Assembly: GCF_024502345.1 (NCBI RefSeq)
Contig: NZ_JALDNN010000001.1
Direction: 5' to 3' (one strand)
DNA from: Escherichia coli
GTDB lineage: Bacteria > Pseudomonadota > Gammaproteobacteria > Enterobacterales > Enterobacteriaceae
Length of the DNA: 64,000 nucleotides
The notes under the pieces: generated by a model
Told to the model about the DNA's origin: nothing
The model's input: only the letters and a program-made list of their open reading frames with translations
The model's database searches: none
Made by a program: the position numbers and the translations under genes
Shown: one piece after another, positions 10,222 through 52,044 of the stretch
Numbering within the stretch: position 1 is the first letter of the stretch
How the letters are laid out: each line of letters begins with the position of its first letter

Positions 10222-10327
10222 TACTACTCCTCTGAAAAATAATACAAAAACGGCAGAATCGTGAGATTCCACCGTTAATCTGGTATGTTCAAAGGGATGA
10301 TATATATCTGAAAATTATTAACTTGAT

Positions 10328-11254
10328 CTACTTTTTGTCTTTTTTACGTGATGAAACAGCCTGCAGCCAAGCATGCTTCATTTTCTGAATAAAGAAATAT
10401 TTTTCTTCAACTCCAGTGTCCCAACTATCCATGCATGCAATGATCATCTGTATTCTCATTGCAGTGTTATATGGTTTTAAATAAAAGGGGATCATATTTT
10501 TATTTCTCAGATACTCCCAGCAATAGATAGCTTGCTTTTCATCTTTTTTATCTAGCCAGTCATAATCAGTAAGAAATGTATTATATTGCTCTAGCCATTT
10601 ATCATGCAACTTACGAAAATAGGAAATTTTCTGACTTAAACTTACAGGAGCTAAATCAATAAACCTCATCAAAGTACAAATGCGTTCTTGTTCGGATGTT
10701 GTATTCGGGCTGTAGTTGTCGGGATCTGCGCCAGATGTTAAATAAAATCTACGCGAGTATTTTTCAGGTATATCTCTATTTTTTTCTTTATTGCTAGGGG
10801 AGGTTCCCACCTGCATTTCGGCTTGTACTTCATCAAGTGAGAAATTTTTAATTTCATCAATGTTTATAAATTCAAAAAAGGATGCAGGAGTTGAGTTCGG
10901 GTTGTAAATATTATCTTGTGCAAAGATATTCACGCTCGAGGAGGTTTCAGGACTGATTCTGTTGTTATATATATACATTAAGGCAAACCACGATCCTCTA
11001 TCAGAACCTTTGAAACAATCGAACTTCTCTTTGTCAATGATTTTGTAATGGAACTGTTTTTTCAAGTAAGTACGCGCACTTTGTATTGCTTCATTATTGA
11101 ATAGGAATTTAGTGTTCAATATATGATTAATGAGTTTTTGAAATTCCTCAGGCGTGTCGAAATTACTCGCCTGCTTAATGTAATCTTCGTTGTAATACAG
11201 ACTCAGAACGTAAAGGGAAAAGAACTCCTCTCTCACTTCGTCATACCTAAGCAT
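10328..11254 (-). CDS. hypothetical protein (308 aa), AT-rich orphan gene
   Basis: Long uninterrupted ORF in visibly AT-rich DNA immediately upstream of the yfjP-like GTPase; no motif recognised. Confidence 0.5.
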   Translation of the reverse strand: MLRYDEVREEFFSLYVLSLYYNEDYIKQASNFDTPEEFQKLINHILNTKFLFNNEAIQSARTYLKKQFHYKIIDKEKFDCFKGSDRGSWFALMYIYNNRISPETSSSVNIFAQDNIYNPNSTPASFFEFINIDEIKNFSLDEVQAEMQVGTSPSNKEKNRDIPEKYSRRFYLTSGADPDNYSPNTTSEQERICTLMRFIDLAPVSLSQKISYFRKLHDKWLEQYNTFLTDYDWLDKKDEKQAIYCWEYLRNKNMIPFYLKPYNTAMRIQMIIACMDSWDTGVEEKYFFIQKMKHAWLQAVSSRKKDKK

Positions 11255-17774: not shown

Positions 17775-17800
17775 AGAGCATTCAGCTACCTGAATGCTCT
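17775..17800. terminator. bidirectional stem-loop between convergent appA and etk
   Basis: Perfect 11-bp inverted repeat AGAGCATTCAG / CTGAATGCTCT with 4-nt loop, preceded by an A-run. Confidence 0.5.
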
Positions 17801-31296: not shown

Positions 31297-31322
31297 AAAA
31301 GGCGGCACATCGCCGCCTGGTG
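31297..31322 (-). terminator. putative rho-independent terminator downstream of the AI-2E transporter gene
   Basis: GC stem AGGCGGC...GCCGCCT followed by a T-run on the minus strand. Confidence 0.4.
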
Positions 31323-46581: not shown

Positions 46582-47067
46582 CAGGATGAGGTGCACACTC
46601 TGGTATGGGTGTCACCTGCCAGAAAAAGCATTGACCTTCGAGCGTATTTCGCCGATAAACAGGGATCCGCCTCATGAGCGGGTCTGAATGCTAACGTTTC
46701 TCTACATCCTTCCCGGTGCCTTTGCCGGGTTTTTTACATCTGTAGTCTCGTTTTCTGGAAAATATTCGTTTCCCTGCCATAATCATAGCAGGCAGCCATT
46801 TGCCGGGCGGCATCGGGTATGCCGTCAGATACCTGAAATTCCTGATAGTGTAGTTTTACGGGCGGCTCCGCCCGTTTTTTTTGTCTTCCCGGAAGGGGGC
46901 ATTTAAAGTGGTGCTATGCATAATACGCAGGTTCGCTAACACCTGTGCAGGTGTTGTTATTAACCATAAGGCCTCTACGCGCACCGCTCAGAAGGCCTGA
47001 GAGCGTTTCAGCGGTACGCGTAGAGGCCTTATGGTAAATAGCCTATGCTAATGTCCGCTAAGAGCTG

Positions 47068-47336
47068 TGAGTTCAACTGATGGACGCAACACACTTATTG
47101 AACCGTTCTGCGGGTGATTCATAGTCTAGGCTTTTTCTCGGCCTTTCGTTGAGCTGTCTGGCAACACTGTTAAGTCTTTGCTGGCTGTGAACCGATAAGT
47201 CAGTTCCTTTTGAAAATACTGCCTGAGCAATCTGTTTGTATTTTCATTGGAGCCGCGTTGCCAGGGGGATTGAGGATGGCAGAAGTAAACCTGAATATCT
47301 GTGGCTACAGTAAACTGTTGTGGTCAACTAAAACTG
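47068..47336 (-). mobile_element. remnant of a diverged IS30-family element (terminal repeat plus transposase 3' part)
   Basis: About 70% nucleotide similarity to the 3' region and terminus of the intact IS30 at 47650..48871; interrupted at ~47337. Confidence 0.45.
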
Positions 47337-47649
47337 GCCACCTGAACAGAGGTGATATGCTCACCTCAGAACAACACAGGTGCCATAATGAAAAAAAGAA
47401 ATTTCAGCGCAGAGTTTAAACGCGAATCCGCTCAACTGGTCGTTGACCAGAATTACACCGTGGCAGATGCAGCCAGCGCTATGGATGTCGGCCTTTCCAC
47501 AATGACGCGATGGGTGAAACAATTACGTGATGAGCGGCAGGGAAAAACACCAAAAGCCTCCCCCATTACCCCGGAACAAATTGAAATCCGTGAGCTCAGG
47601 AAAAAGCTACAACGTATTGAAATGGAAAATGAAATATTAAAAAAGGCTA
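47337..47649 (+). mobile_element. IS911-like (IS3 family) 5' fragment with partial orfA
   Basis: Left-end-like sequence GGCCACCTGAACAGAGGTGATATGCTCACC and orfA N-terminus [43 protein letters not shown]; cut at 47649 by IS30. Confidence 0.65.
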
Positions 47650-49517
<1,868 letters not shown>

Positions 49518-49616
49518 TATTACTGTCGCCTGTAAATAACCGGCACAGTGCGAACACCATGCCGGGAGATTATGGCTGACAAAACGGGAACGACAGGATC
49601 CCGCTGTTGTCGGGGG

Positions 49617-50013
49617 TCAGAAGGTTTCCCAGTTCTCGCTGGCGTGTTGTTCCGTTTCACGAACGGACTTTACCGCTTTAACCTTACTCTGCGGGCTGGT
49701 GTTGCTGATTGTCGGTACTATGGTATTTTTTCGTTCAGCATCGCGTTTTTTATTATCACGGAGACGAAATACGCTCACCTTCTCCTGCAGAATCCGTGAC
49801 TGATTCTGCAACGAAGCGGCAGTGGCTGCAGACTGTTCCACCAGAGCTGCATTTTGTTGGGTGGTGCTGTCTATCTGGCCCACGGCGCTGTTAATCTGGG
49901 CAATACCATCTCCCTGCTCACGACTGGCCTTGGCTATTTCGTCAATCAGCCCTTCCATGCTCTGGACGTTACTGATGATATCCTCCATTCCCCTGTCTGC
50001 TTTTTCAACCAGG
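49617..50013 (-). pseudogene. methyl-accepting chemotaxis protein, 3' fragment truncated by IS1
   Basis: Encodes the MCP signalling-domain C-terminus ending in the CheR-docking pentapeptide NWETF; upstream part replaced by IS1. Confidence 0.7.
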
Positions 50014-50689
50014 GTACTGACGGGGTGGTGCGTAACGGCAAAAGCACTGCCGGACATCAGCGCTATCTCTGCTCTCACTGCCGTAAAACATGGCAACTGC
50101 AGTTCACTTACACCGCTTCTCAACCCGGTACGCACCAGAAAATCATTGATATGGCCATGAATGGCGTTGGATGCCGGGCAACCGCCCGCATTATGGGCGT
50201 TGGCCTCAACACGATTTTCCGCCATTTAAAAAACTCAGGCCGCAGTCGGTAACCTCGCGCATACAGCCGGGCAGTGACGTCATCGTCTGCGCGGAAATGG
50301 ACGAACAGTGGGGATACGTCGGGGCTAAATCGCGCCAGCGCTGGCTGTTTTACGCGTATGACAGGCTCCGGAAGACGGTTGTTGCGCACGTCTTCGGTGA
50401 ACGCACTCTGGCCACACTGGAGCGTCTTCTGAGCCTGCTGTCGGCCTTTGAGGTCGTGGTATGGATGACGGATGGCTGGCCGCTGTATGAATCACGCCTG
50501 AAGGGAAAGCTGCACGTTATCAGCAAGCGTTACACTCAGCGCATTGAGCGACATAATCTGAATCTGAGACAATATCTGGCAAGGCTGGGACGGAAGTCAC
50601 TGTCGTTCTCAAAATCGGTGGAGCTGCATGACAAGGTCATCGGGCATTATCTGAACATAAAACACTATCAGTAAGTTGGAGTCATTACC
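50014..50689 (+). mobile_element. IS1, 5'-truncated copy (lacks left inverted repeat and start of insA)
   Basis: Match to IS1 begins inside insA (TACTGACGGGGTGGTGCGTAACGG) and continues to the right end ...GAGTCATTACC at 50689. Confidence 0.85.
50171..50674 (+). CDS. insB: IS1 InsB
   Basis: 167 aa, a few substitutions relative to the 27476..27979 copy. Confidence 0.85.
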
Positions 50690-50781
50690 CGGAGTAACTT
50701 GTCAGAAACATCAATCTTCGTCATCATTTCAAAGAAAAATAATTAGTTAAAGCAGTCCGGGCTGATTGCCCGGACTGCTTA

Positions 50782-52044
50782 CTATTTTAATGGATTGTTA
50801 ATCTTTGCATATTCAAACGGACTGATACCCTTCTCCCGGTTCGCATCCAGAAAATCGGCCCACCATTGCAACATCAGTCGCCGTTCTTCCAGATGTTCTG
50901 CTTTATGGATATACGCAGCACGTACACCATTACGCTCCTGATGGCTCATCTGACGTTCCACAGCATCGCGGGACCACAAACCTGATTCAATCAATGCACT
51001 GCACGCCATCGCCCGGAATCCATGGCCACAGACTTCCTGGGTTGTGTCATACCCCATCACCCTCAGGGCTTTATTTACAGTATTTTCACTGATTGGTTTA
51101 CGCGGGTCATGTGCACCCGTAAATATCAGACCATTTTCACCTGCCCATGTCTGAAGTTCTGTCAGTATGGCTACAGCCTGTTTGCTGAGTGGCACAAGAT
51201 GTGGTGTTCGCATCTTGGAGCCCCGGTGTGAGAATTTTACGCCGGGCAGAGGTTCGCGTTCGGCTGGAATAGTCCACATGGCATTGTCAATATCAATTTC
51301 AGACCACCGGGCGTATCTGAGTTCACTGGAACGAATAAAAACCAGTAAATTCAGCGTAACGGCAAGCTGGGTGACAGGTTGCCCCTTGTAACTGCTAATA
51401 CGCGACAAAAGTTCAGGCAGGCGAGAAAGATCAAGAGCGGGGCGATGCTGGCGTTTTACAGTGGTCAATGCGCCAGCCATATCCAGAGCAGGATTATATC
51501 TGATGATGCCAGACTGTACGGCATAACGCATTACAGCAGATATTCTTTGCTGCAGACGACTGGCGATTTCATAAATTTGTTTAGCTTCTGCGGCACGAAC
51601 AGGGATAAGCAGGTCCGGGGTACGGAGTGTTGTGATATCCCGGTTGCCGATAAAGGGGAAAACGTGTGTCTCGAGGCTTTTGAGTACTTTATCGCTGTGT
51701 GATTGTGCCCATTGTTTATTACTGGCATGCCAGCGTCGTGCAATATGTTCAAAAGAGAGTTGTAAATCAGGGACTACTTTTTTAGCTCTTTTTTGTTCGC
51801 AAGGGTCAACCCCCTCCGAAATCAGTTTTCGGGCCTCATCCCGTTTTGTACGAGCTTCGGAGAGAGAAACTTCCGGATACACACCAAGTGCCAGGGTTTT
51901 CTCCTTACCCAGAATACGATAACGGAGACGCCAGTAACGGGAACCATTAGGATGAACCAGCAGGAACATGCCGGCCCCGTCAGTGAGTTTATAAGCCTTG
52001 TCAGTGGGCTTTGCAGCCCGGATTTTTGCGTCAGTCAGTGCCAT
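50782..52044 (-). CDS. P4-type tyrosine integrase (tRNA-associated genomic island integrase)
   Basis: 420 aa, MALTDAKIRAAKPTDKAYKLTDGAGMFLLV... N-terminal arm-binding domain and catalytic R..HGFR..Y core; adjacent to a tRNA-Phe 3' fragment. Confidence 0.85.
   Translation of the reverse strand: MALTDAKIRAAKPTDKAYKLTDGAGMFLLVHPNGSRYWRLRYRILGKEKTLALGVYPEVSLSEARTKRDEARKLISEGVDPCEQKRAKKVVPDLQLSFEHIARRWHASNKQWAQSHSDKVLKSLETHVFPFIGNRDITTLRTPDLLIPVRAAEAKQIYEIASRLQQRISAVMRYAVQSGIIRYNPALDMAGALTTVKRQHRPALDLSRLPELLSRISSYKGQPVTQLAVTLNLLVFIRSSELRYARWSEIDIDNAMWTIPAEREPLPGVKFSHRGSKMRTPHLVPLSKQAVAILTELQTWAGENGLIFTGAHDPRKPISENTVNKALRVMGYDTTQEVCGHGFRAMACSALIESGLWSRDAVERQMSHQERNGVRAAYIHKAEHLEERRLMLQWWADFLDANREKGISPFEYAKINNPLK

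What the first reader, a model, noticed from the sequence alone, without database searches (positions are those of the whole stretch)
46590..46882. Second strong terminator about 300 bp after the autotransporter terminator
ACGGGCGGCTCCGCCCGT followed by a T-run at 46858..46882 has no convincing ORF upstream (the ORF-track call 46688..46906 lacks an SD and has no protein-like composition). It could mark a small RNA or a short peptide gene.
Basis: inference. Interest (0 to 1): 0.25.

Follow-up and report, generated by a model that had tools for sequence, protein, structure and literature searches.

The report
Orphan terminators after an adhesin gene
A textbook transcription stop signal really does sit about 350 bases after an E. 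coli adhesin gene with no protein gene in front of it, and it most likely ends a short untested regulatory RNA or is a leftover stop signal, which makes it an ordinary, low-priority candidate.

Summary
ACGGGCGGCTCCGCCCGT plus T8 at 46858-46882 (+) is a canonical intrinsic terminator. It is one of only three of its grade in the 64-kb window, and none arose in 12 shuffles.

So three same-strand terminators lie within 330 nt (P about 0.009).

The 72-aa ORF 46688..46906 runs through both T2 and T3. It has no homologue and loses its frame in an Enterobacter copy, so it is not a gene. No ORF with a ribosome-binding site lies between T1 and T3. Rfam finds nothing.

The best sigma-70-like site of the tail (TGGAAA-16-TGC-CATAAT, 46756-46783) lies between T2 and T3. 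It predicts a 93-nt RNA (46790-46882) with Hfq-type 3' features.

The 529-bp tail always travels with the AIDA-type autotransporter gene. It is present in 15 of 5,426 E. coli genomes, one E. roggenkampii tRNA-Phe island and 17 gut metagenome contigs, all at least 99% identical. Conservation and covariation therefore cannot be tested.

The best reading is an unverified island-borne sRNA candidate (about 0.4). The main rival is relic or fail-safe terminators (about 0.35). Interest is low.

The parts
43486..46536 (+). AIDA-I-type autotransporter gene (1016 aa in this window). It is the upstream same-strand neighbour with which the tail is always inherited.
   Evidence: ORF. NCBIfam finds an autotransporter barrel and partial AIDA-I, MisL and ECSE_1600 matches, all below the equivalog cut-offs. 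RefSeq annotates it as an autotransporter outer membrane beta-barrel domain-containing protein.
46559..46581 (+). T1, the autotransporter's own intrinsic terminator (GGAGGGC-TTCG-GCCCTCC plus T5). It starts 23 nt after the stop codon.
   Evidence: dG -14 to -16. The C46571G variant in E. roggenkampii and contigs L009 and L013 weakens it to -11.9.
46631..46659 (+). Weak sigma-70-like site, TTGACC-17-GATAAA. It would start an RNA of about 70 nt ending at T2.
   Evidence: PWM score 7.5, rank about 400 of 640,000 combinations in the window. It lacks the conserved final T of the -10 hexamer, so the tool's scan does not list it.
46664..46735 (+). Possible short RNA 1: a 5' hairpin (46664-46684), a single-stranded CU-rich stretch, then T2.
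   Evidence: Fold -22.5 kcal/mol, z -2.5. This is inference only.
46712..46735 (+). T2, a second and weaker intrinsic terminator (CCCGGT-GCCTTT-GCCGGG plus T6).
   Evidence: dG -9.7 to -10.4.
46756..46783 (+). Best promoter-like site of the tail: -35 TGGAAA, 16-nt spacer, extended -10 TGC-CATAAT. The predicted start is A46790.
   Evidence: It is the only + strand site in the tool's scan of 45500-48000. PWM score 9.6, rank 86 of 640,000 combinations in the window. The only variant in it, C46777T, hits the free n of TGn.
46790..46882 (+). Predicted 93-nt noncoding transcript (candidate sRNA): a 5' stem-loop, an unpaired stretch CCUGAAAUUCCUGAUAGUGUAGUUUUA, then the T3 hairpin and U8.
   Evidence: Fold -32.1 kcal/mol, z -1.7. 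No SD-bearing ORF lies inside it. Expression is not tested.
46858..46882 (+). T3, the terminator of the finding (ACGGGCG-GCTC-CGCCCGT plus T8).
46688..46906 (+). Chance 72-aa ORF that runs across T2 and T3. It is not a gene.
46908..47000 (+). 30-codon ORF (MVLCIIRRFANTCAGVVINHKASTRTAQKA) just after T3. It has the only strong SD of the tail (GGAAGGGGG).
   Evidence: SD pairing -10.8 kcal/mol. No family match. The only database hit is the same locus, split by an IS5-family insertion at CTAA 46935-46938 in E. roggenkampii. It is probably not a gene.
46958..47040 (.). Palindrome with 31-nt arms. The tail ends at 47065, where an IS30-family end abuts.
   Evidence: 94% complementary arms. (z -5.2). 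Searches show the right arm plus 25 nt shared with Qin-like prophages.

Best explanation
T3 is the intrinsic terminator of a short, independently transcribed noncoding RNA of about 93 nt (46790-46882, + strand).

Proposed mechanism, all inferred:
- RNA polymerase starts at the extended -10 promoter TGGAAA-16-TGC-CATAAT (46756-46783).
- It transcribes a 5' stem-loop and an unpaired stretch of about 25 nt.
- It stops at the 7-bp GC hairpin plus U8.

The U-rich stretch before the hairpin and the long 3' U-tail are the features that let Hfq hold such RNAs. The likely action is therefore base-pairing with mRNAs in trans.

T2 either ends a second, similar RNA (about 46664-46735) or backs up the autotransporter terminator T1.

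The whole 529-bp tail is non-coding cargo of a tRNA-Phe-type genomic island. It moves together with the AIDA-type autotransporter gene between Enterobacter and E. coli.

What is shown: the terminators, the absence of a gene, and the linkage to the autotransporter gene. What is inferred: the promoter, the transcript and its mode of action.
For: - T3 is canonical and beyond chance.
- T1 and T2 lie upstream on the same strand. A transcript that ends at T3 therefore needs its own start between 46736 and 46857, and the best promoter-like site of the tail lies exactly there. The chance of a site that good in that 120-nt slot is about 0.06, estimated from 86 combinations in 128 kb of strand.
- No coding potential was found: no SD-bearing ORF, no protein homologue, no Pfam or NCBIfam match, and the frame is not kept in L005.
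- The sequence UAGUGUAGUUUUA precedes the hairpin and U8 follows it. This matches the Hfq-binding module described by Otaka 2011 and Ishikawa 2012 (cited from my own knowledge).
- There is a useful prior. In Salmonella islands, 14 of 19 candidates predicted from orphan terminators alone gave a detectable sRNA, 19 of 28 overall. That screen included terminators more than 250 nt downstream of a same-strand gene (PMC2330248). T3 ends 346 nt after the autotransporter stop codon.
- The IS5-family insertion in E. roggenkampii lies after T3 and leaves both units intact.
Against: - There is no expression evidence of any kind.
- No Rfam family reaches even half of its gathering score.
- All 34 known copies are at least 99% identical. 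The tail diverges 0.6-0.75% against about 1% for the autotransporter gene, so there is no sign of constraint. The three or four substitutions include none that is compensatory, and T46666A weakens a predicted hairpin.
- The -35 hexamer matches only 4 of 6 positions, and the fold z-score is only -1.7.
- No target stood out among the translation start regions of the window, although the method was crude.
- The element is rare: 15 of 5,426 E. coli genomes. Its exact terminator words are absent from 100,044 species genomes and from IMG/VR.
Confidence: 0.4

Rival explanations
1. T2 and T3 are relic or fail-safe terminators. They are either left over from island genes lost to deletion and IS traffic, or they act only as back-ups that stop read-through from the autotransporter gene into downstream DNA. 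No dedicated transcript is made.
For: - The locus is an IS junkyard. Every known context has an IS upstream of the autotransporter gene and an IS within 0.4-0.7 kb downstream.
- A natural variant (C46571G) weakens T1 from -16.3 to -11.9 kcal/mol. In those copies T2 would take over.
- There is no conservation signal, no Rfam hit and no expression evidence.
- Promoter-like sites as good as the best one here occur about once per 1.5-2 kb of strand.
Against: - Back-up terminators usually follow within tens of nt, not at 150-nt steps.
- No gene carrying these terminators was found anywhere.
- No pseudogene trace appears in any frame.
- The two units are not duplicates of one another.
- Orphan terminators in islands usually do mark transcripts (PMC2330248).
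Confidence: 0.35
2. T3, perhaps with T2, is a leader or attenuator terminator. It controls transcription into what follows: the 30-codon ORF 46908-47000 with its strong SD, the 83-nt palindrome, and whatever gene once lay beyond 47065.
For: - The only strong SD of the tail (GGAAGGGGG, -10.8 kcal/mol) lies 10-20 nt after T3.
- A - strand promoter-like site (46949 to 46920) would give an RNA antisense to that SD.
- The stretch 46590-46735 folds well (z -2.5).
Against: - The peptide has no homologue and no family match.
- It has no hydrophobic span of the kind type I toxins have.
- It is split by an IS in E. roggenkampii.
- No riboswitch or leader family matches.
- I saw no obvious antiterminator alternative for T3 in the minimum-free-energy folds.
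Confidence: 0.1
3. T3 terminates a short protein-coding gene between T1 and T3.
For: Small ORFs exist, for example 33 codons at 46586-46687. In that frame the two variants give D to E and TGA to TAA.
Against: - None has a usable SD (at best -6.9 kcal/mol, for a 9-codon ORF).
- The 33-codon ORF ends before T2, not T3.
- Between T2 and T3 the longest + strand ORF is 17 codons with a TTG start and no SD.
- The 72-aa ORF is refuted.
Confidence: 0.03

Closest known systems
Island-encoded sRNAs of Salmonella (IsrA-IsrQ), found by searching genetic islands for orphan rho-independent terminators (Padalon-Brauch et al. 2008, PMC2330248)
   Same: It lies in a horizontally acquired island. It has an orphan terminator more than 250 nt downstream of a same-strand gene, which is that paper's third type. 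The predicted size is about 90 nt. There is no ORF, and the taxonomic range is narrow.
   Different: No transcript has been shown here. There is no sequence or structure similarity to any Rfam family, Isr families included. The promoter is only predicted.
Hfq-dependent trans-acting sRNAs of Enterobacteriaceae in general (the Hfq-binding 3' module: a U-rich stretch, a terminator hairpin and a U-tail of at least 7)
   Same: A U-rich stretch precedes a GC hairpin that is followed by U8. An unpaired region of about 25 nt could act as a seed.
   Different: Hfq binding, targets and seed conservation are all untested. No target was found in the window.
Tandem (fail-safe) intrinsic terminators, as in rrnB T1-T2
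   Same: Several same-strand terminators follow one gene.
   Different: Here they are 150 nt apart. They are separated by structured sequence and by promoter-like sites. They are unrelated to each other in sequence.
Type I toxin-antitoxin loci (hok/sok, ldr/rdl, zor/orz)
   Same: A small ORF with a strong SD lies next to stable RNA structures, and a promoter-like site sits on the opposite strand.
   Different: The peptide is not hydrophobic and has no family match. It is disrupted in one host without loss of the locus. It lies after T3, not before it.

Membership tests
Intrinsic (rho-independent) terminator | Short G+C-rich hairpin | tested here: met
   7-bp stem with 6 G-C pairs and a 4-nt loop, dG -12.4 to -12.9 kcal/mol.
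Intrinsic (rho-independent) terminator | A run of T directly after the stem, on one strand only | tested here: met
   T8 at 46875-46882. On the - strand the stem is followed by TAAAAC.
Intrinsic (rho-independent) terminator | More than chance | tested here: met
   There were 0 sites of this grade in 12 dinucleotide shuffles of 64 kb, against 3 in the real window.
Intrinsic (rho-independent) terminator | RNA 3' ends form there in vivo | not testable with these tools
   This needs Term-seq or a Northern blot.
Hfq-type trans-acting sRNA gene | Own promoter | tested here: inconclusive
   TGGAAA-16-TGC-CATAAT ranks 86 of 640,000 combinations in the window. The chance of such a site in that slot is about 0.06.
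Hfq-type trans-acting sRNA gene | No protein-coding potential | tested here: met
   The frame is not kept in L005.
Hfq-type trans-acting sRNA gene | 3' module: a U-rich stretch, a hairpin and a long U-tail | tested here: met
   The sequence GUAGUUUUA-hairpin-U8.
Hfq-type trans-acting sRNA gene | Conserved seed, or covariation in the stems, among relatives | tested here: inconclusive
   All copies are at least 99% identical. There is no substitution in 46778-46874.
Hfq-type trans-acting sRNA gene | Detectable transcript, Hfq binding and targets | not testable with these tools
   No transcriptome is available. A crude duplex scan of the window gave nothing above shuffles.
Any described RNA family (Rfam 15) | A match at the gathering score | tested here: not met
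   The best matches are 15-22 bits against gathering scores of 45-80, and they are driven by the terminator.
Small protein gene | A start codon with an SD, an ORF ending before the terminator, and a frame conserved among copies | tested here: not met
Type I toxin-antitoxin | A small hydrophobic membrane peptide plus an overlapping antisense RNA | tested here: not met
   The 30-aa peptide has no hydrophobic span of about 18 residues or more (sequence). It has no family match. The antisense promoter is only a 9-of-12 consensus match.

The most novel reading that the evidence does not exclude
The 0.5-kb tail is a cassette of two tandem sRNA genes, each with its own promoter and terminator (about 46664-46735 and 46790-46882). 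It hitch-hikes with an AIDA-type adhesin gene on a tRNA-Phe island and has moved between Enterobacter and E. coli. Once acquired, the RNAs regulate either the adhesin or core-genome mRNAs.
Probability: 0.2. Interest if true: 0.35.

Novelty: new member of a known kind. Interest (0 to 1): 0.15.

Why it matters
If the RNA exists, it would be one more strain-specific regulator carried on a genomic island. It would be physically coupled to an adhesin gene and shared between Enterobacter and a few commensal or extraintestinal E. coli lineages, including the probiotic component strain G3/10. That would interest people who map sRNA networks of accessory genomes, but it would not change any general concept. 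If it does not exist, the site is a leftover or back-up terminator in an IS-ridden island. In either case RefSeq leaves these 536 bases unannotated.

Tried and rejected
- Rfam, at a permissive threshold on 3 kb and again on 424 nt, gave only sub-threshold noise.
- BLAST of the tail found the following.
  - In 5,426 E. coli genomes, only 15 identical copies, all at the hemB locus.
  - In plasmids, nothing.
  - In phages, only the palindrome arm.
- Exact words from T3 and T2 gave 0 hits in 100,044 species-representative genomes and in IMG/VR.
- The metagenome scan returned 17 gut contigs, all the same autotransporter gene plus tail, in two haplotypes that differ at 3-4 tail positions. That is too little for covariation or constraint tests.
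- The nearest autotransporter relatives have only 61-68% amino-acid identity (Yersinia, Kluyvera). Their downstream regions are unrelated. P0006 could not be located.
- Protein searches with the 72-aa ORF and with the ORF after T3 found only the same locus.
- The idea that T1-T2 and T2-T3 are diverged tandem duplicates was rejected. The alignment score is no better than shuffles.
- The idea of a tRNA or att relic was rejected. There is no tRNA in the window, and the tRNA-Phe lies at the far side of the Enterobacter island.
- A target search against the 111 translation start regions of the window gave nothing above the shuffled controls. The method was crude.
- My first terminator scan used a faulty pairing constraint. 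replace it.
- A literature search for transcriptomes of carrier strains failed on term syntax, and I did not pursue it.

Full report
**Setting**

The window is E. coli chromosome at the hemB locus. The order of features is as follows.
- hemB, 41141-42316 (-).
- An IS5-family element (ISKpn26), 42298-43278 (-).
- An AIDA-I-type autotransporter gene, 43486-46536 (+).
- A stretch of 536 bases that RefSeq leaves unannotated.
- An IS30-family remnant, an IS3-family fragment and an intact IS30.

The finding lies in the unannotated stretch.

**The observation**

ACGGGCG-GCTC-CGCCCGT at 46858-46875 forms a 7-bp stem with six G-C pairs and a tetraloop. It runs into eight T (46875-46882). The tool's scan lists it.

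In my own scan its hairpin is worth -12.4 kcal/mol. It is the only + strand site, and one of three sites on both strands of the 64-kb window, with dG <= -12 and at least seven T in the tail. Twelve dinucleotide-preserving shuffles of the whole window produced none. It works on one strand only.

The autotransporter's own terminator T1 (46559-46581), T2 and T3 are therefore three same-strand terminators within 330 nt. They are three of only ten such sites on that strand in 64 kb. The chance of that under random placement is about 0.009.

**Is there a gene in front of T3?**

No.
- The 72-aa ORF 46688-46906 runs straight through T2 and T3.
- Among 5.8 billion proteins it has no homologue but itself, and it has no Pfam match.
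- In an Enterobacter roggenkampii copy the T-run has seven T. The frame then shifts, giving a different 119-aa product that reads into an IS.
- A scan of all ORFs of at least eight codons on both strands found no usable Shine-Dalgarno pairing anywhere between T1 and T3.
- The only strong SD (GGAAGGGGG, -10.8 kcal/mol) lies after T3, before a 30-codon ORF at 46908-47000. That ORF has no family match. Its only database hit is the same locus in E. roggenkampii, where an IS5-family element inserted at CTAA 46935-46938 splits it.

**Known RNA families**

Rfam 15 gives nothing near a gathering score, either on 3 kb or on the 424-nt core with lax filters.

**Where else does the tail occur?**

- The 338-nt core occurs in 15 of 5,426 complete E. 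coli genomes. All copies are 100% identical. In the three genomes I inspected they sit in the same hemB-ISKpn26-autotransporter context and are unannotated.
- It is absent from the plasmid and phage collections.
- Exact 21-23-mers of T3 and T2 are absent from 100,044 species-representative genomes and from IMG/VR.
- A metagenome scan found 17 human-gut contigs, all with the autotransporter gene directly upstream.
- The E. roggenkampii contig shows the probable native setting: tRNA-Phe, a P4-type integrase, IS1, the autotransporter gene, then the tail.

Two haplotypes exist. Within the tail they differ only at these positions.
- 46571 (C>G). This weakens T1 from -16.3 to -11.9 kcal/mol.
- 46666 (T>A). 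This weakens a predicted hairpin.
- 46686 (G>A).
- 46777 (C>T).
- The length of the T-run.

The autotransporter gene differs by about 1% and the tail by 0.6-0.75%. Neither purifying selection nor covariation can therefore be assessed.

The next-closest autotransporter proteins are only 61-68% identical (Yersinia, Kluyvera), and their downstream DNA is unrelated.

The tail is thus a recent, narrowly distributed passenger of this one adhesin gene. Its right limit is 47065. There an IS30-family end abuts in the window, while the second haplotype continues for about 190 nt before an IS3-family element.

**Anatomy bearing on mechanism**

T1 and T2 lie upstream on the same strand. An RNA that ends at T3 should therefore start between 46736 and 46857.
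- The only + strand promoter-like site that the tool finds in 45500-48000 lies there: TGGAAA, 16 nt, TGC-CATAAT at 46756-46783.
- A position-weight scoring, with consensus frequencies approximated from memory, ranks it 86th of about 640,000 position-spacer combinations in the window. By my estimate that gives a chance of roughly 0.06 of finding one that good in the slot.
- The single variant inside it changes the free base of the TGn motif.
- A start at A46790 gives a 93-nt RNA. It has a 5' stem-loop and an unpaired CCUGAAAUUCCUGAUAGUGUAGUUUUA, followed by the hairpin and U8. The fold is -32.1 kcal/mol with z -1.7.
- The U-rich stretch before the hairpin and the long U-tail are the Hfq-binding module of enterobacterial sRNAs (my own knowledge: Otaka 2011, Ishikawa 2012).
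- A weaker site, TTGACC-17-GATAAA (46631-46659), could start a 70-nt RNA ending at T2 (fold z -2.5).
- The two units are not related in sequence.

**Prior from the literature**

In Salmonella genetic islands, a screen for orphan terminators confirmed 19 of 28 candidates as expressed sRNAs. Of the 19 candidates predicted from terminators alone, 14 were confirmed. The screen included terminators lying more than 250 nt downstream of a same-strand gene (PMC2330248). T3 ends 346 nt after the autotransporter stop codon and belongs to that class. T2, at 199 nt, does not.

**Verdict**

- Best reading, at about 0.4: T3 ends a dedicated noncoding RNA of about 93 nt, an unverified island-borne sRNA candidate. 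T2 is either a second such unit or a back-up for T1.
- Main rival, at about 0.35: both are relic or fail-safe terminators in an IS-ridden island, and no transcript of their own is made. The lack of any conservation signal and the natural weakening of T1 fit this rival.
- A leader or attenuator role for the SD-bearing ORF after T3 is possible but weak (about 0.1).
- The short-peptide reading is not supported (about 0.03).
- Nothing here lies outside known kinds of feature. Without a transcriptome the question cannot be closed, and the interest is low.

Noticed in passing
window 46958-47065: A palindrome with 31-nt arms (z -5.2). Its right arm plus 25 nt (47004-47065, ending ...CCGCTAAGAGC) is about 92% identical to a segment about 240 nt downstream of flxA in a Qin-like phage. 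The piece occurs, mostly once per genome, in about 1,200 of 5,426 E. coli genomes. In four unrelated contexts the similarity stops at the same base, so this is a shared junction of unknown nature.
   Followed up: partly
window 43486-46536; L005 6730-9849; L009 334-3390: The autotransporter gene varies in length between copies: 1016 aa in the window, 1018 and 1039 aa in the two loci, and 1043-1073 aa in RefSeq genomes. The indels lie near 45400-45600, apparently in a Pro/Thr-rich repeat. In every context an IS sits just upstream (ISKpn26 in E. coli, IS1 in E. roggenkampii), so the native promoter may have been displaced.
   Followed up: partly
window 46935-46938; L005 about 10252-10357; L029 1-105: In E. 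roggenkampii an IS5-family element is inserted at CTAA, with target duplication, between T3 and the palindrome. This is why that assembly breaks there.
   Followed up: yes
window 50751-50782: A very stable perfect 11-bp hairpin (GCAGTCCGGGC-TGATT-GCCCGGACTGC, about -24 to -25 kcal/mol) with no proper T-run. Its nature was not examined.
   Followed up: no
window 47352-50225: Downstream of the tail lie an IS3-family N-terminal fragment (47352-47738, +), an intact 383-aa IS30 transposase ORF (47658-48809, -) and a C-terminal fragment of a methyl-accepting chemotaxis protein (49617-50225, -). This differs from strain G3/10, where the IS30 is truncated, so the window comes from another carrier strain.
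   Followed up: partly
window 31300-31318 (-) and 17776-17799 (-): These are the only other terminators of the same strict grade as T3 in the window (dG <= -12, at least 7 T). I did not check which genes they serve.
   Followed up: no
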